A stretch of 57,819 nt of DNA from a bacterium (GCA_035380285.1 DAOSXE010000020.1:1-57819), one strand, 5' to 3'; shown: positions 38,653 through 56,136, counted from the stretch's first letter. The notes: generated by a model not told the origin, from the letters alone. Translations and numbers: made by a program.

Positions 38653-38702
38653 ACAACAACAGCGGGATGTCTTCATTGCCCGAATCCGTGGAGGCGGAAC
38701 CG

Positions 38703-39917
38703 ATGCCCGATGCCGTCAAGGTCAGCGAGGGGATTTACTGGCTGGGAGTGAACGACCGCCAGACCCGGCTTTTCGAGGAGCTCTGGCCGCTCCCCAACGG
38801 GGTCTCCTACAACGCCTACCTGGTGGAGGGAACGGAGCGCTGCGCCCTGATCGACACCGTCAAGGGGTCTTTCTCCGCCGATTACCGGGAGCGGGTGGCC
38901 CAGTGGGTCTCCGCCGGCCGGCGGATCGAATACCTGGTCATCAACCACATGGAGCCGGACCACTCCGGTTCGATCAAGACCCTGGTCGAGCTCTGTCCCG
39001 GGATCCGGCTCGTCGGGAACGAGCACACGGTGCGGATGATCGAGGACTTCTACCGCCTCGGCGCCGATACCGTCGAGGTCGGCGACGGCGACGAAATCGA
39101 TCTGGGAGGGAGGAAGCTGGTCTTCAGGCTCACTCCCATGGTCCATTGGCCGGAAACGATGATGACCTTCGATTCACGGACCGGAACGCTTTTCTCCGGC
39201 GACGCCTTCGGGGGGTTCGGGACCCTCGACGGAGGCATTTTCGACGACGAGGTCAACATCGAGTTCTACCAGGACGAGATCCGCCGCTACTTCACCAACA
39301 TCGTCGGACGTTTCAGCGCCATGGTGGTCAAGGCCATCGACAAGGTCCGGGATCTTCCCATCGCCGTGGTCGCTCCCACGCACGGGCCCATCTGGCGCCG
39401 GGACCCGTCGCGGATCATCGAGGCGTACGCTTCCTGGAGCCGGCACGAGACCGAACCGGGAGTGGTGATCGTCTACGGGTCCATGTACGGGAACACCGAG
39501 CGCATGGCCGATGCCGCCGCCCGGGTTCTGAGCGAACGGGGGTTGAAGAACATCAAGATCTTCAACGCTTCCCATACCCACGTTTCCTACATGATCAACG
39601 AGATCTGGAGGTTCCGGGGCCTGCTCCTGGGAAGCTGCACCTACAACCTCGGTCTCTTCCCCCCCATGATCGAACTGCTGGATAAGCTCAGGAACAGCAA
39701 CCTCCGGGGCTGGCTGGTCGGCATCTTCGGCACCTATGCCTGGAGCGGCGGCGGCGTCAAGCGCCTGCGGGAATGCGCGCAGGAGTGCGGCTGGAAACTG
39801 GTGGAGCCGGTGGTCGAAGCCCGCTGCGCCCCCAAGCCCGAAGACCTGCGGGGGTGCCGGGAGCTGGCGGTCAACCTGGCCGCCGCCCTGGATGCTCCCG
39901 GGGACGGCGGGGGATGA
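38703..39917 (+). CDS. FprA-family flavodiiron protein (metallo-beta-lactamase + flavodoxin; O2/NO reductase)
   Basis: The VKVSEGIYWLGV start is typical of FprA. The HxExDH-like motif HMEPDHSG and a C-terminal flavodoxin-like domain are present. The ATG at 38703 has a GGAGG SD; earlier in-frame codons in the listed ORF are unlikely. Confidence 0.75.
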   Translation: MPDAVKVSEGIYWLGVNDRQTRLFEELWPLPNGVSYNAYLVEGTERCALIDTVKGSFSADYRERVAQWVSAGRRIEYLVINHMEPDHSGSIKTLVELCPGIRLVGNEHTVRMIEDFYRLGADTVEVGDGDEIDLGGRKLVFRLTPMVHWPETMMTFDSRTGTLFSGDAFGGFGTLDGGIFDDEVNIEFYQDEIRRYFTNIVGRFSAMVVKAIDKVRDLPIAVVAPTHGPIWRRDPSRIIEAYASWSRHETEPGVVIVYGSMYGNTERMADAAARVLSERGLKNIKIFNASHTHVSYMINEIWRFRGLLLGSCTYNLGLFPPMIELLDKLRNSNLRGWLVGIFGTYAWSGGGVKRLRECAQECGWKLVEPVVEARCAPKPEDLRGCRELAVNLAAALDAPGDGGG

Positions 39918-53583: not shown

Positions 53584-54099
53584 ATGGAAACCGTACGCCG
53601 CGCCTTGCTCCGCGCCGAGGCTCGGAGCACCTGCCGCAACATCCGTCTGGCCGCCGTGATCGAGACCCCCTCCGGGCGCCTGGTCGAGGGCTGGAACGGG
53701 CCTCCCGAGCGCTGCGGCCCGCACCCGGCCTGCCGGTTGGGCGGTCCGATCACTCCCGCCAACCTCCGGCTCTGTCCCGGGGTCCACGCCGAGGTCCGCG
53801 CGCTCTGCCGGGCGGCGGCGCGGGGCGTGGCCGTCGAGGGGGGAACGCTCTATCTCAGCCGCTGGTTCCCCTGCGCCCCCTGCGCCCGGGCCCTGATCGA
53901 AGCCGGAATCGTCCGTCTGGTGGTGACGGAGAAACTCTCCCTGGCCAAGGACGATTGCTACAACTTCGTACTGGCCGAGGAACTGCTGGGGGCCGCCGGG
54001 GTGGAGACGGTGATCGATCCCGGTTTACTCGAATTCGGCCAGGAGGAAGGTGTGGTCCGAGGGCCGCTCTCCCAGCCGGGGTTCCAGGTCGATCCATGA
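53584..54099 (+). CDS. dCMP deaminase family protein (ComEB-like)
   Basis: HAEVRAL...PCAPCARAL is the zinc-binding deaminase signature. The 3' end overlaps xth by 75 nt. Confidence 0.55.
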   Translation: METVRRALLRAEARSTCRNIRLAAVIETPSGRLVEGWNGPPERCGPHPACRLGGPITPANLRLCPGVHAEVRALCRAAARGVAVEGGTLYLSRWFPCAPCARALIEAGIVRLVVTEKLSLAKDDCYNFVLAEELLGAAGVETVIDPGLLEFGQEEGVVRGPLSQPGFQVDP

Positions 54100-54795
54100 G
54101 CCCCGGCAGCGCCGGGCCAGGGCCGGAGCGGCCATGATGTAGTCGATCCGCCAGCCCATCCGCCGCTTGAGCAGCCAGGGGGTCCGGTAGTCGAAAAAGG
54201 TGTAGAGCCGCTCCTCGGGGTGGTTGCTGCGGAAGCAGTCCTCGAAACCCCAGGCGATGACGTTTTCCAGGGCGTCCCGGGCCCGGGGGTGGTAACAGAC
54301 GTTGTCGGCTTCGCCCTCGGGGTCGAAGACGTCCAGGGGGAGGCGGGCGACGTTGAAGTCCCCCGCCCAGGCCAGTGGCCGGTCCGGGGAAAAGGTGCGG
54401 TCGAACCACCGCCGCAGCCGCGCCAGCCACTCCAGCTTGAAGCGGAACATCTCGTGTTCCGGAGCCCGGCCCTGGGGGACGTAGGTGTTGACCACGCTCA
54501 CCCCCCCGAAGTCGGCCCGGATCAGCCGGCTCCCCTCGTCCTTCCCCTCCCCGTCGAACCCGTAGGAGACCAGCTCCGGCGTTTCCCGGGAGACGATCGC
54601 CACCCCGTTGTAGGTCTTCTCCCCTCGGAAGGCGACCTGCCAGCCGGCTTTCTCGAACTCCGCCCGGGGGAAGTCCTCGTCCCGGACCTTGGTCTCCTGG
54701 AGGGCGAGGACGTCGGGGCGATGCTCCTCCAGCCAGGCCAGGACCGTCGGCAGCCGGGCCCGGATGGAGTTGACGTTGAAGGTGGCGACGAGCAT
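54025..54795 (-). CDS. xth: Exodeoxyribonuclease III
   Basis: It is collinear with the Xth/APE1 fold (MLVATFNVNSIRARL, LALQETK, C-terminal SDH). The start is the ATG at 54795. Confidence 0.85.
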   Translation of the reverse strand: MLVATFNVNSIRARLPTVLAWLEEHRPDVLALQETKVRDEDFPRAEFEKAGWQVAFRGEKTYNGVAIVSRETPELVSYGFDGEGKDEGSRLIRADFGGVSVVNTYVPQGRAPEHEMFRFKLEWLARLRRWFDRTFSPDRPLAWAGDFNVARLPLDVFDPEGEADNVCYHPRARDALENVIAWGFEDCFRSNHPEERLYTFFDYRTPWLLKRRMGWRIDYIMAAPALARRCRGSWIDLEPRLGERPSDHTFLLAEFE

Positions 54796-54857
54796 GAGGG
54801 CATTGTCGGCCGCCCCCGGGCCCCTGTCAAGGAGACCCCGGGGTAGACATGGAAGGA

Positions 54858-54969
54858 AGCATGGAGCATGGGGCATAGAGCATAGAGCATAGAGAATAGA
54901 GAAAAACTGCCACGGACCCCTTTGGGTTCAGGGCGGAGGGGTTCCCCTCTATGCCCCATGCTCCATGCT
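54858..54969. repeat. Perfect 23-bp inverted repeat (arms 54858..54880 and 54947..54969) with a 66-nt loop that carries tandem CATAGAG heptamers
   Basis: The left arm AGCATGGAGCATGGGGCATAGAG is the exact reverse complement of the right arm. The right arm encodes the last six codons and stop of the alcohol dehydrogenase gene. The loop begins CATAGAGCATAGAGAATAGAG. Confidence 0.8.
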
Positions 54970-56136
54970 CTCTGCTCCCCCCGCGCAGCGTTCCAGGACC
55001 CGGCGGGCCACGTCGGGGGTGACGCCGCCCCGTTCCCCCAGCTTGACCATGCCGTGGGCTTCCAGTTGGGCCAGGAGGGCGGGGACGGCGTCGGGCCCGA
55101 TCCCGTAGTCGCCCAGCCGGGTCTGCACCCCCATCCGCTCGAAGAACTCCCGGGTGGCGGCGATGGCGGCGGAGACGGCCTCCTCCTCGTCCGCTCCCTC
55201 GATCCCCCAGACCCGGCGGGCGTACTGGAGGAGTTTTTCGCGTTTCTGCTCCCGGCGCACTTCGAGCATGGCCGGGAGCACCACGGCCAGGGTCTGGCCG
55301 TGGTCGAGGCCGTGGAGCGCCGTGATCTCGTGGCCGACCATGTGAGTGGCCCAGTCCTGCGGCACCCCGGCCCCGATCAGGCCGTTCAGGCCCAGGGTGG
55401 CGCACCACATCAGGTTGGCGCGGACCTCGTAGTTCTCGGGATCGGCCAGGGCCTTGGGCCCTTCCTCGATCAGGGTGAGCAGCAGGCCCTCGGAGAAGCG
55501 GTCCTGGACCTTGCCCCCCACCGGGTAGGTCAGGTACTGCTCGGCGATATGGACGAAGGTGTCGATCACCCCGTTGGCGGTCTGCCGGGGCGGGAGGGTG
55601 TAGGTCACGGTCGGGTCGAGGACGGAAAAGCGGGGATAGACCGCCGGGTTCATGAAGGGGAGCTTGCTTTTGGTGGATTCGCGGGTGACGACCGAGCCGC
55701 AGTTCATCTCCGACCCGGTGGCCGGCAGCGTCAGGACCGTCCCCAGGGGGAGGGCGGAGCGCACGGCCGCCCCTCGGGTCTCCATGATCTTCCAGGGATC
55801 GCCCTCGAAGGGCGCGGCGGCGGCGACGAACTTGGTCCCGTCCACGACCGAGCCCCCGCCCACCGCCAGCAGGAAATCGATCCCGTCGGAGCGGACCAGT
55901 TCCACCGCTTTCACCAGGGTCTCGAAACGGGGGTTGGGCTCGATCCCGCCGAACTCGGCCGGGGCGCAACCGTCCAGGGCCTCCCTGACCCGGTCGAGGA
56001 CGCCGTTTTTCTTGACGCTCCCGCCGCCGTAGAGGATCAGCACCCGGGCGTTTTCGGGGATCTCCCCGGCCAGGTCGGCGATCCGGCCCTTCCCGAACAG
56101 GATCTTGGTGGGGTTGTAAAACGTGAAGTTCAGCAT
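54949..56136 (-). CDS. Iron-containing (group III) alcohol dehydrogenase
   Basis: The Fe-ADH motifs GGGSVVDGTK and the His-rich metal site HMVGHEITALHGLDHG are present. Confidence 0.8.
   Translation of the reverse strand: MLNFTFYNPTKILFGKGRIADLAGEIPENARVLILYGGGSVKKNGVLDRVREALDGCAPAEFGGIEPNPRFETLVKAVELVRSDGIDFLLAVGGGSVVDGTKFVAAAAPFEGDPWKIMETRGAAVRSALPLGTVLTLPATGSEMNCGSVVTRESTKSKLPFMNPAVYPRFSVLDPTVTYTLPPRQTANGVIDTFVHIAEQYLTYPVGGKVQDRFSEGLLLTLIEEGPKALADPENYEVRANLMWCATLGLNGLIGAGVPQDWATHMVGHEITALHGLDHGQTLAVVLPAMLEVRREQKREKLLQYARRVWGIEGADEEEAVSAAIAATREFFERMGVQTRLGDYGIGPDAVPALLAQLEAHGMVKLGERGGVTPDVARRVLERCAGGAESMEHGA

What the first reader, a model, noticed from the sequence alone, without database searches (positions are those of the whole stretch)
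54858..54969. A perfect 23-bp inverted repeat spans the adh stop codon, with (CATAGAG)n heptamer repeats in a 66-nt loop
Positions 54858..54880 (AGCATGGAGCATGGGGCATAGAG) are the exact reverse complement of 54947..54969. The right arm is the final six codons (S-M-E-H-G-A) plus the TAG stop of the iron alcohol dehydrogenase.
The left arm is therefore an inverted duplicate of the gene's 3' end. It is followed by three further heptamers (CATAGAG, CATAGAG, AATAGAG) in an unusually AT-rich 66-nt loop.
On the minus-strand transcript this would form a very long perfect hairpin between adh and xth. It is followed by UUCCUUCC rather than a clean U-tract.
A stem this long is atypical for an intrinsic terminator. 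The alternatives are an RNase III processing or attenuation site, a cruciform-forming or recombination site, or a degenerate miniature inverted-repeat element or insertion scar.
The local heptamer repeat looks like slipped-strand or target-site duplication debris.
Basis: seen in the sequence. Interest (0 to 1): 0.55.

Follow-up and report, generated by a model that had tools for sequence, protein, structure and literature searches.

The report
Inverted heptamer-repeat hairpin after adh
The 23-bp inverted repeat is real, but it is two head-to-head copies of a small seven-base-repeat module found elsewhere in this genome and in many other bacteria; it sits on the stop codon of an alcohol dehydrogenase gene, the protein is ten residues longer than its relatives, and the hairpin probably marks the end of the transcript.

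Summary
A perfect 23-bp inverted repeat (54858-54880 / 54947-54969) spans the adh stop codon. It is absent from shuffled sequence and identical in six independent assemblies, so it is not an artefact.

The interpretation needs reversing. The arms are not a copy of the gene's end. Both are heptamer arrays (unit GCATRGR) belonging to a ~70-nt module, GGGAGGGR-(4 heptamers)-AAAAAC-CCTCCGCCRCGGACCC. The same module recurs 7.5 kb away in the same genome (32/34 identical, copy number differs between assemblies) and in two other metagenomic organisms.

ADH homologues end ten residues earlier. The extra tail GGAESMEHGA and the TAG stop are encoded entirely by the array.

In 240 loci from many phyla, neighbouring arrays of this unit almost always lie G-rich array, then spacer, then C-rich array (66 against 2). 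They usually sit tightly between co-directional genes.

Most likely this is a dispersed foldback repeat of the heptanucleotide (STRR/LSSR, REPIN-like) kind. Here it gives adh a long 3' stem-loop, with a nested hairpin plus U5, upstream of a separate, probably leaderless, xth promoter. The terminator or stabiliser role is inferred, not shown. It is a new member of a known kind, of moderate interest.

The parts
54851..54857 (+). Outer boundary motif of the left module (GGAAGGA, family consensus GGGAGGGR).
   Evidence: Module alignment A4; sequence.
54858..54901 (+). Left heptamer array, 6.3 copies of AGCATRG (G-rich on the + strand). On the adh transcript it is the pyrimidine-rich 3' arm (CUCUAUG)n.
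   Evidence: TRF; pattern search.
54858..54880 (.). Left arm of the perfect 23-bp inverted repeat.
   Evidence: I4.
54902..54906 (-). T5 run on the adh strand (A5 on +), directly 3' of the nested hairpin. It corresponds to the AAAAAC / AAATAC element of the module.
54907..54936 (-). Nested imperfect hairpin: CUGCC-AC-GGACCC-CUUU-GGGUUC-AG-GGCGG on the + strand, GCC.CU.GA.ACCC-AAAG-GGGU.CC.GU.GGC on the adh strand. It is formed by the two module cores (CCRCGGACCC type) lying head to head, and contains GGGTTCAGGG, a remnant of a second heptamer family.
   Evidence: Folds; homology to L244, L149 and L001.
54947..54978 (-). Right heptamer array, 4.6 copies, G-rich on the adh strand (AGCAGAG AGCATGG AGCATGG GGCATAG AG). 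It is the 5' arm on the adh transcript and is 32/34 identical to L001 3455-3488 and 3646-3679.
54947..54969 (.). Right arm of the perfect 23-bp inverted repeat.
   Evidence: I4.
54979..54981 (-). Rest of the outer boundary motif of the right module (GGGGGG AGCAGAG). The module starts at the codon after Ala385, which aligns with the last residue of nine of the ten homologues compared.
54949..54981 (-). Ten-codon C-terminal extension of ADH (GGAESMEHGA, 54981-54952) plus the TAG stop (54951-54949), all encoded by repeat sequence.
54949..56136 (-). Iron-containing alcohol dehydrogenase gene, 395 aa.
   Evidence: (Pfam Fe-ADH).
54802..54830 (-). Sigma-70-like promoter TTGACA-17-GACAAT. The -10 hexamer ends 6 nt before the xth ATG, which suggests a leaderless xth mRNA.
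   Evidence: 10 of 12 matches; the only site in 2.4 kb, 0.1 expected.
54025..54795 (-). Exodeoxyribonuclease III gene, 256 aa, starting at MLVATFNVN. The longer ORF from an ATG inside the left array (54876) is not supported by homologues.

Best explanation
The feature is a foldback repeat element. It consists of two copies, head to head, of a ~70-nt module built around four or more tandem heptamers (unit GCATRGR). The module reads GGGAGGGR - heptamers - AAAAAC - CCTCCGCCRCGGACCC.

The module belongs to a family of heptanucleotide-repeat elements. That family occurs at least twice within 66 kb of this genome, in related uncultured bacteria, and, as plain arrays and hairpin pairs, in many phyla.

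The element abuts the last conserved codon of adh. The native stop is gone. Translation runs ten codons into the G-rich array and ends at the first TAG that the CATAG variant of the unit supplies.

On the adh transcript the two arrays pair into a 23-33 bp stem. The stem encloses a smaller G+C-rich hairpin followed by UUUUUCUCUAUU.

I infer that this structure ends and/or protects the adh transcript. I also infer that it separates adh from xth, which has its own promoter 27 nt further on and probably a leaderless mRNA.

I infer that the arrays arose by polymerase slippage on 7-nt units, and that the module spreads or is homogenised as an oriented unit, in the way REPINs or MITEs do. The perfect identity of the two arms would then reflect recent copying between them.

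Shown: anatomy, family membership, protein extension, reality in nature. Inferred: terminator or stabiliser role, leaderless xth, mode of spread.
For: - The repeat is real and non-random and identical in six assemblies.
- Both arms are period-7 arrays.
- A second locus in the same genome, 7.5 kb beyond adh (L001 3374-3830, L002, L003), holds the same array at 32/34 identity (E = 2.6e-9), followed by the same ACCCCTCCGCC..ACCC. It has 252 nt more in one assembly than in another.
- The module alignment of both window arms, three L001 units, two L244 copies and one L149 copy gives 71% mean column identity.
- Window minus strand 54845-54948 aligns with L244 3355-3470 at 76%, including AAAGGGGnCCGTGG, TTTTT and the array.
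- All 120 best ADH homologues listed are shorter than the query (119 of them 384-386 aa, one 391 aa, against 395 aa). In the ten aligned, nine stop ten residues before the query's end, and the extension begins exactly where the module begins.
- The closest ADH (82% identity, L127) has a plain stop and no array at that place, although its contig carries related heptamer arrays elsewhere.
- The hairpin is -60.8 kcal/mol, z = -6.4. The nested hairpin plus T5 is comparable to other hairpin-plus-T-run sites at gene ends in the window.
- A promoter-like site lies just downstream of the element.
- Family behaviour, first part. In 240 loci, short-range pairs are oriented G-array then C-array 66:2, while pairs 300-5000 nt apart show no bias (38:27).
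- Family behaviour, second part. In a cruder ORF-based survey, 16 of 24 classifiable hairpin units lie between co-directional genes, and 9 of 25 ORFs running toward a unit end inside its first array.
- In-frame units exist inside a conserved gene.
Against: - No RNA data exist, so termination, processing or stabilisation is not shown.
- The nested hairpin alone is no more stable than shuffled sequence (z = 0.14), and the consensus terminator scan did not call it.
- The outer stem is not followed by a U-tract.
- The adh stop lies inside the 5' arm, so a terminating ribosome must melt the long stem.
- Only two loci of the family were seen in about 66 kb of this genome, and none elsewhere in the 57.8-kb window. 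High copy number is therefore not shown.
- No transposase was found: ORFs between long-range array pairs are housekeeping genes. No target-site duplication was seen.
- No close relative exists for an empty-site comparison. The next ADH is 82% identical and the next Xth 61%.
Confidence: 0.7

Rival explanations
1. Neutral or selfish repeat with no function at this site. The foldback is tolerated because it lies at a gene boundary. Its only effects are the ten-residue tail and an incidental hairpin.
For: - The function of bacterial heptamer repeats is unresolved in the literature (PMC4679880, PMC4692102, bioRxiv 10.1101/2022.06.06.494920).
- The nested hairpin is not statistically distinct.
- Units also occur inside ORFs.
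- The nearby second locus varies in copy number between assemblies.
Against: - The element is invariant in six assemblies.
- The two arms are perfectly matched over 23 bp, although units vary in the family; the mean arm match at variable positions is 0.64.
- Strict orientation (66:2) and tight packing at gene ends across phyla suggest constraint.
- A -60 kcal/mol stem on an mRNA 3' end will have some effect on decay.
Confidence: 0.3
2. RNase III processing or attenuation site. The 23-33 bp double-stranded RNA is cut, or is used to couple adh translation to downstream transcription. This is compatible with the main explanation as a mechanism.
For: - The stem has 23 perfect base pairs, extendable to 33. 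From general knowledge, that is long enough for RNase III.
- The stop codon lies inside the 5' arm, so translation and stem formation compete.
Against: - There are no RNA data.
- xth appears to have its own promoter and no Shine-Dalgarno sequence, so read-through would serve little purpose.
- Other family members have much less perfect stems.
Confidence: 0.12
3. Protein-binding array. The heptamers would be iteron-like sites for a regulator acting on the xth promoter, which starts 27 nt away, or on adh. Geobacter tandem repeats and Nostoc heptamers have been proposed to act this way.
For: - Six direct repeats end 27 nt upstream of the -35 hexamer.
- Geobacter metallireducens paired tandem hepta- and octanucleotide repeats were annotated as putative global regulator sites (PMC2700814).
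- Heptamer repeats affected recO promoter assays.
Against: - The same unit occurs in many phyla and in contexts with no common gene function, including inside ORFs.
- No binding protein is known.
- A 7-bp period does not keep sites on one face of the helix (general knowledge).
Confidence: 0.08
4. One reading: a local inverted duplication of the adh 3' end, followed by slippage, producing a one-off terminator-like hairpin.
For: The arms are 100% identical over exactly the last six codons plus the stop.
Against: - The coding arm and the ten residues it encodes are absent from the 120 best homologues listed (all 384-391 aa).
- The same 34 nt occur in non-coding tandem units 7.5 kb away and in other organisms.
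- Both arms carry the module's boundary and core motifs.
Confidence: 0.03
5. Assembly artefact, such as a chimeric join or a collapsed repeat.
For: Repeats can break assemblies; the NCBI MAG contig L003 starts inside the second repeat locus.
Against: 221 nt across the junction are identical in six assemblies from different samples and assemblers.
Confidence: 0.01

Closest known systems
Heptanucleotide tandem repeats of bacteria: STRR of cyanobacteria (own knowledge, Mazel et al. 1990); long simple sequence repeats of Mrazek et al. 2007 (as summarised in PMC4679880); TAACTGA repeats (PMC4679880); GGGNATC repeats (PMC4692102).
   Same: - Tandem 7-nt units of a few copies, often about four.
- Dispersed and mostly intergenic, close to gene starts or stops.
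- Patchy distribution across phyla.
- Variable copy number.
- The same GCATRGR unit forms arrays in Nostoc, Microcoleus, Calothrix and others.
   Different: - The unit sequence GCATRGR did not turn up as a described repeat in a whole-word search of the held library for six 7-mer forms of it.
- Here the arrays are parts of a larger conserved module and are paired in inverted orientation with strict polarity.
- The host is a 67% G+C unclassified bacterium, labelled only 'bacterium' at NCBI, not a cyanobacterium.
Geobacter metallireducens multicopy elements: 49 elements with four GGACCGG heptanucleotides, and paired tandem hepta- or octanucleotide repeats on opposite strands (PMC2700814).
   Same: - About four tandem heptamers inside a longer conserved element.
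- Found between and within genes.
- Some classes occur as pairs on opposite strands that can be drawn as a hairpin.
   Different: The sequences differ. The Geobacter elements were interpreted as regulatory RNA or regulator-binding sites without tests. I did not compare the sequences directly.
REPINs / REP-BIME elements (PMC3116915).
   Same: - Two inverted copies of a short repeat separated by a spacer.
- Predicted to form a hairpin in ssDNA or mRNA.
- Extragenic, with a fixed orientation of the doublet.
- Clusters and tandem forms also occur.
   Different: - REP units are themselves short palindromes, not tandem heptamers.
- REPINs are tied to a RAYT transposase gene, which I could not look for in this genome.
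- High copy number is not shown here.
MITEs, Rickettsia palindromic elements and eukaryotic Foldback elements (own knowledge).
   Same: - Terminal inverted repeats with a fixed orientation.
- Foldback elements have inverted terminal repeats that are themselves made of short tandem repeats.
- Rickettsia palindromic elements insert in frame into genes and are translated, as seen here at the ADH tail and in L163/L240.
   Different: - No target-site duplication was seen.
- No cognate transposase was found.
- The resemblance is recalled from memory, not tested.
Rho-independent terminators and 3' stabilising stem-loops.
   Same: A stable stem-loop lies just after (here overlapping) a stop codon and before the next promoter. 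A nested G+C-rich hairpin is followed by U5.
   Different: The outer stem is much longer than usual and lacks a U-tract. The nested hairpin is imperfect and not distinguishable from shuffles.

Membership tests
Bacterial heptanucleotide tandem repeats (LSSR / STRR-like) | Head-to-tail copies of a 7-nt unit, more copies than chance gives. | tested here: met
   TRF: 6.3 and 4.6 copies. The pattern gave 8 matches against 0.13 expected in shuffles.
Bacterial heptanucleotide tandem repeats (LSSR / STRR-like) | Several dispersed loci of the same unit in one genome. | tested here: met
   A second locus lies 7.5 kb away (L001 3374-3830), 32/34 identical over the array. Only about 66 kb of the genome could be read, so the total number is unknown.
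Bacterial heptanucleotide tandem repeats (LSSR / STRR-like) | Copy number varies between strains. | tested here: inconclusive
   The adh locus is invariant in six assemblies. The second locus differs by 252 nt between L001 and L002.
STRR sensu stricto (cyanobacteria) | Units STRR1-3 (CCCCAGT, TTGGTCA, CAACAGT) in heterocystous cyanobacteria. | tested here: not met
   The unit here is GCATRGR. The host is a 67% G+C unclassified bacterium. Arrays of the same unit do occur in cyanobacteria.
REPIN | Inverted doublet of a repeat with a spacer, forming a hairpin. | tested here: met
   Orientation across the family is 66:2.
REPIN | Each repeat unit is itself a short imperfect palindrome (REP). | tested here: not met
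   The arms are tandem heptamers without internal dyad symmetry. Only the module core forms a small hairpin.
REPIN | A RAYT (REP-associated tyrosine transposase) gene in the genome, flanked by the repeats. | not tested
The window's ORFs were not scanned for Y1 transposases beyond ten large ORFs (none).
MITE | Terminal inverted repeats. | tested here: met
   23 bp perfect, 33 bp at 82% complementarity.
MITE | Target-site duplication flanking the inverted repeats. | tested here: not met
   The flanks GGAAGGA and CTCTGCT/CCCCCC are not direct repeats, and they belong to the module itself.
MITE | A related autonomous element with a transposase between the same ends. | tested here: not met
   In 65 array pairs 300-5000 nt apart, I read by eye the translations of the longest ORFs between the G-then-C pairs; they look like housekeeping proteins. 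This sample covers other genomes, not the source genome.
Rho-independent terminator | G+C-rich stem-loop immediately followed by a U-tract, downstream of a gene. | tested here: inconclusive
   The nested hairpin 54907-54936 plus U5 fits by eye. Its energy equals that of shuffles (z = 0.14), and the consensus scan did not report it. The outer stem is followed by UCCUUCC.
Rho-independent terminator | Transcript 3' ends at the U-tract. | not testable with these tools
   No RNA data.
RNase III substrate | About two turns of uninterrupted double-stranded RNA. | tested here: met
   23 perfect base pairs. Cleavage itself is not testable here.
Known RNA families (Rfam 15) | Match at the gathering score. 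| tested here: not met
   Only a tRNA elsewhere in the window reached threshold. At the site there are only sub-threshold microRNA-precursor hairpin matches.

The most novel reading that the evidence does not exclude
The inverted heptamer-array hairpin (G-rich array, AT-rich or structured spacer, C-rich array) may be an unrecognised, cross-phylum class of oriented foldback element.

Its almost invariant polarity (66:2 at short range, no bias at long range) would reflect a dedicated mechanism. One possibility is a mobilising enzyme that reads the arrays as oriented ends, as RAYTs read REPINs. Another is a selected 'gene-boundary cassette'.

The cassette idea rests on the unit's sequence. On either strand the first array carries TAG and the second carries ATG. 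With 7-nt spacing these codons fall in all three frames. That would let insertions at or inside genes survive, as seen at the ADH tail and in the in-frame copies in L163/L240.
Probability: 0.2. Interest if true: 0.65.

Novelty: new member of a known kind. Interest (0 to 1): 0.4.

Why it matters
For this locus, the result corrects the annotation logic. The last ten residues and the stop codon of the ADH are repeat-derived, and adh and xth are probably separate transcription units.

More broadly, bacterial heptamer repeats have been known since 1990 without an agreed origin or function. This element ties a plain array to a conserved ~70-nt module. It shows that the same unit is shared by very distant phyla. 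It also exposes a strong orientation rule for paired arrays that simple replication slippage does not explain.

That rule gives a concrete handle for asking whether these repeats are mobile, like REPINs, or selected as RNA structures.

Tried and rejected
- Searched the window for other copies of the 23-mer (up to 3 mismatches) and of the heptamer pattern. None lie outside the site.
- Rfam at gathering and at permissive thresholds gave nothing meaningful.
- The consensus terminator scan did not call the site.
- Looked for an orthologous adh-xth junction. The closest ADH (82%) has a different downstream gene. The closest Xth is 61% identical. No empty-site comparison is possible.
- Looked for a transposase between long-range array pairs and found only housekeeping genes.
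- Tried to walk further along the source genome.
- blastn-short with the spacer alone missed the L244 homologue because of gaps. A MAFFT alignment showed it.
- Tested whether arms of one locus match each other better than arms of different loci: 0.637 against 0.564 +/- 0.019. This could reflect genome-specific unit preference rather than selection for pairing, so I give it little weight.
- G-quadruplex formation, as proposed for GGGNATC repeats, was considered and set aside, because only one unit here has a G4 run.
- Phase variation was considered and set aside. A unit gain or loss would only alter the short tail, and six assemblies are identical.
- The taxonomy of the host was not resolved. 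NCBI calls it 'bacterium', and the ten large ORFs scanned with Pfam are not useful markers.

Full report
**1. Observation**

The region 54600-55200 was read directly. Positions 54858-54880 (AGCATGGAGCATGGGGCATAGAG) and 54947-54969 are exact reverse complements separated by 66 nt (pair I4). The 23-mer, allowing up to 3 mismatches, occurs only here in the 57.8-kb window and never in 100 shuffles.

Tandem Repeats Finder shows that both arms are period-7 arrays: 54858-54901 (6.3 copies) and 54947-54978 (4.6 copies). These are the only sizeable heptamer arrays in the window; the only other period-7 row is a trivial 2.1-copy one at 38700-38714. With mismatches the complementarity extends to 33 nt (I1).

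The right arm covers the last six codons and the TAG stop (54951-54949) of a 395-aa iron alcohol dehydrogenase gene on the minus strand. Downstream on the same strand lies exodeoxyribonuclease III.

As RNA, the 112-nt unit folds at -60.8 kcal/mol on the adh strand (z = -6.4) and at -65.6 kcal/mol on the other strand (z = -7.5).

The 'AT-rich loop' is AT-rich only in its first 27 nt (heptamers plus A5). The other 39 nt are 69% G+C.

**2. Not an artefact**

The exact ADH protein is encoded on 11 contigs. Six of them, from JGI, ENA, two NCBI MAGs and two Logan assemblies, were fetched. The 221 nt across the junction are identical in all six and in the window.

**3. The gene end is made of repeat, not the reverse**

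All of the 120 best ADH homologues listed are shorter than the 395-aa query. 119 are 384-386 aa and one is 391 aa; in the alignment the 391-aa protein owes its extra length to its N-terminus. In that alignment of ten homologues, nine stop at ...VLELCL, opposite the query's ...VLERCA, and one adds an unrelated two-residue tail. The query then continues with GGAESMEHGA. These ten codons (54981-54952) and the stop lie entirely in the array and its boundary motif.

The closest homologue (82% identity, L127) has a plain stop and an ordinary intergenic region there.

**4. A second locus in the same genome**

The fetched flanks reach 8 kb beyond the window. There, between a transporter gene and two tRNA genes, lies a cluster of heptamer arrays (AGGGTTC, AGAATTC, GAGCATA, AGCAGAG). 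It also holds a ~61-nt tandem unit, GGGAGGG[GA]AGCAGAGAGCA[TG][GA]GAGCATAGTGCATAGAGAAATAC[TC]CCTCCGCCGCGGACCC (L001 3374-3830).

The 34 nt of the window's right arm plus its extension (54980-54947, minus strand) are 32/34 identical to these units (E = 2.6e-9). The similarity continues into ACCCCTCCGCC....ACCC.

This locus has 252 nt more in the JGI assembly than in the ENA assembly, made up of one extra composite block and one extra unit. The family is therefore dynamic in natural populations, although the adh copy is fixed.

**5. The module, and copies in other organisms**

A metagenome scan with GCAGAGAGCAKRGAGCATRG returned three contigs of 60-64% G+C (L149, L199, L244). They carry the same composite arrangement, including GGAGATTTCTGCACC and GCCACGGACCC motifs shared with the source genome.

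L244 3355-3470 aligns with the window's minus strand 54845-54948 at 76% column identity. The shared order is CCTGAACCC, AAAGGGGnCCGTGG, TTTTT, (CTATGCT)n, TTCCyTCC.

An alignment of both window arms, three L001 units, two L244 copies and one L149 copy gives this consensus: GGGGAGGGGAGCAGAGAGCATGGAGCATAGAGCATAGAGAAAAAC-CCTCCGCCACGGACCC, with 71% mean identity.

The window element is thus two such modules head to head. Their cores (CTGCCACGGACCCC on the plus strand, CCTCCGCCCTGAACCC on the minus strand) pair with each other to form the nested hairpin 54907-54936.

The right module begins at the codon after Ala385. That is exactly where the stop codon of most homologues would be.

The contig of the closest ADH relative also carries AGAATTC- and GGGTTCA-type arrays, but elsewhere.

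**6. The wider family**

The hits include many cyanobacteria (Nostoc, Microcoleus, Calothrix, Oscillatoria). They also include Syntrophobacteria and Desulfobacterales MAGs, Bacteroidales, Saprospiraceae, Vicinamibacterales, Planctomycetota, Calditrichia, Omnitrophota, Aminicenantes, Nitrospirota and others. These loci hold a median of three period-7 arrays per 8 kb, of many unit types. The source window has 0.035 per kb.

Across the 240 loci from both scans, neighbouring arrays of GCAnnGn units 3-150 nt apart are ordered as follows:
- G-rich array then C-rich array: 66 times
- the reverse order: 2 times, both doubtful
- direct orientation: 53 times
- binomial p for 66 against 2: 1.6e-17

At 300-5000 nt the two orders are about equal (38:27), so the bias belongs to the hairpin unit itself. 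TRF-based counts agree (17:3 and 18:3).

Spacers are mostly AT-rich, with a median of 44 nt. 28 of 67 have a run of four or more A next to the G-rich array or four or more T next to the C-rich array.

A crude ORF analysis of 32 hairpin units gave these placements:
- 16 between co-directional genes
- 3 between convergent genes
- 3 'divergent', one of which is the window itself, misclassified because of a spurious antisense ORF
- 2 inside long ORFs
- 8 unclassifiable

In 9 of 25 cases, the ORF that runs toward a unit ends inside its first array, as adh does.

In L163 and L240 a unit sits in frame inside a conserved gene and would add 24-30 residues.

One Calditrichia MAG has two copies of a foldback with (GCATGGG)n arms and a homologous 48-nt spacer (L025, L123).

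The ORFs enclosed by long-range array pairs, judged by eye from their translations, look like ordinary housekeeping genes and not transposases.

**7. How it probably works here**

On the adh transcript the order is as follows.
- The G-rich arm, which contains the stop codon.
- GGGGAACCCC.
- The nested hairpin GCC.CU.GA.ACCC-AAAG-GGGU.CC.GU.GGC.
- AGUUUUUCUCUAUUCUCUAUG.
- The rest of the pyrimidine-rich arm.
- UCCUUCCAUGUCU.

The nested hairpin followed by U5 and a U-rich array looks like an intrinsic terminator. It resembles other hairpin-plus-T-run sites at gene ends in this window. On its own, however, it is no more stable than shuffled sequence, and the consensus scan did not call it.

The outer 23-33 bp stem would form once the last ribosome has left. 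It is long enough to block 3' exonucleases or to be cut by RNase III (general knowledge).

Twenty-seven nucleotides further on lies TTGACA-17-GACAAT. It is the only promoter-like site in 2.4 kb (0.1 expected). Its -10 hexamer ends 6 nt before the xth ATG at 54795, and there is no Shine-Dalgarno sequence. This suggests a leaderless xth mRNA.

Xth homologues are 255-260 aa and cover the whole 256-aa protein. The longer ORF starting at an ATG inside the left array is therefore not the gene.

I conclude that the element most likely ends and/or stabilises the adh transcript and separates two transcription units. This step is inferred.

**8. Origin**

Heptamers are the commonest long simple repeats in prokaryotes, and polymerase slippage on 7-nt units has been proposed (Mrazek et al. 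2007, as summarised in PMC4679880). Slippage explains arrays. It does not explain a conserved 70-nt module, its recurrence in other organisms, or the 66:2 orientation rule.

A fixed order 'X ... reverse complement of X' is what inverted ends of a mobile unit give, as in MITEs and REPINs (PMC3116915). I therefore favour spread or homogenisation as an oriented unit. No transposase, target-site duplication or RAYT has been seen, so I do not file it as a MITE or a REPIN.

The perfect identity of the two arms is notable. The nearest other copy differs at 2 of 34 positions, and family arms match at only 0.64 of variable positions. This points to recent copying between the arms.

**9. Comparison with what is known, and novelty**

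The closest described things are listed here.
- Bacterial heptanucleotide repeats: STRR, TAACTGA repeats (PMC4679880) and GGGNATC repeats (PMC4692102).
- Geobacter metallireducens elements with four tandem heptanucleotides, and its paired tandem repeats on opposite strands (PMC2700814).
- REPINs.

Their functions are still debated. A whole-word search of the held library for six 7-mer forms of the GCATRGR unit found no paper that describes it as a bacterial repeat.

The finding is a new member of a known kind. It is of modest interest for this locus, and somewhat greater interest for the orientation rule and the cross-phylum sharing of the unit.

**10. Limits**

- There are no RNA data and no complete genome.
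- There is no close relative for an empty-site test.
- The host is unclassified.
- Gene contexts in other loci rest on crude ORF calls.

Noticed in passing
L001 3374-3830 (= L002 3626-3830, L003 85-200), about 7.5 kb beyond the window's right end: A composite repeat locus lies between a Na/sulfate-symporter-family gene and two tRNA genes. It holds arrays of AGGGTTC, AGAATTC, GAGCATA and AGCAGAG plus a 61-nt tandem unit. The JGI assembly has 252 nt more than the ENA assembly, and an NCBI MAG contig breaks inside it.
   Followed up: yes
window 54793-54830, minus strand: TTGACA-17-GACAAT sits with only 6 nt between the -10 hexamer and the xth ATG, and there is no Shine-Dalgarno sequence. xth is probably expressed as a leaderless mRNA.
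   Followed up: partly
240 loci L007-L126 and L130-L249: Neighbouring arrays of GCAnnGn heptamers within 150 nt are ordered G-rich then C-rich 66 times and the other way twice. At 300-5000 nt there is no bias (38:27). Slippage alone does not explain this.
   Followed up: partly
L240 (minus strand, array about 2174 in reverse coordinates) and L163 (about 4123): A heptamer hairpin unit lies in frame at the same position of a conserved gene in two organisms (...GSAVLPGAMFLVAYL[insert]VPILGIPACGMY...). It would add 24-30 residues such as SREHGAWGMEQKPSALSALPSAE, reminiscent of Rickettsia palindromic elements.
   Followed up: partly
L025 2793-2885 and L123 2992-3093 (same Calditrichia MAG, JACKAP01): Two copies of a foldback with (GCATGGG)n arms and a homologous ~48-nt spacer, in opposite orientations. 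This is a dispersed element with the same architecture as the window's.
   Followed up: partly
L020, L023, L027, L050, L052, L085, L087, L091, L094, L105, L122 (Microcoleus and relatives): (GGGCATA)n arrays sit inside a larger element bounded by ATATAGCCTTTCTCAGTAACATGAGGT ... CCTCAC...GAGAACCGCTATAT. It looks like a MITE that carries a heptamer array in its centre.
   Followed up: no
L185, L191, L196, L198, L203, L221, L232, L236 (metagenome contigs): A subfamily of hairpin units shares a 15-16-nt AT-rich loop of the form GTAAAAAGATTTAAC / GATATTAAGAAAAAC between the two arrays, on contigs from different metagenome samples.
   Followed up: no
L244 3280-3345 and 10090-10140, 10330-10360: Another repeat, the palindrome CCTGCCTGCCGGCAGGCAGG with flanking CACAGA motifs, recurs. 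One copy lies inside the spacer of a heptamer foldback, giving nested repeats.
   Followed up: no
window 54025-54099: The convergent dCMP deaminase ORF (53584-54099, +) and xth (54025-54795, -) overlap by 75 nt at their 3' ends. Gene callers in the source assemblies give the same overlap.
   Followed up: no
window 54876 and the left array, minus strand: The C-rich array supplies ATG codons, so the longest xth ORF starts inside the repeat (283 aa). The G-rich array supplies TAG. With 7-nt spacing both codons occur in all three frames over three units.
   Followed up: partly
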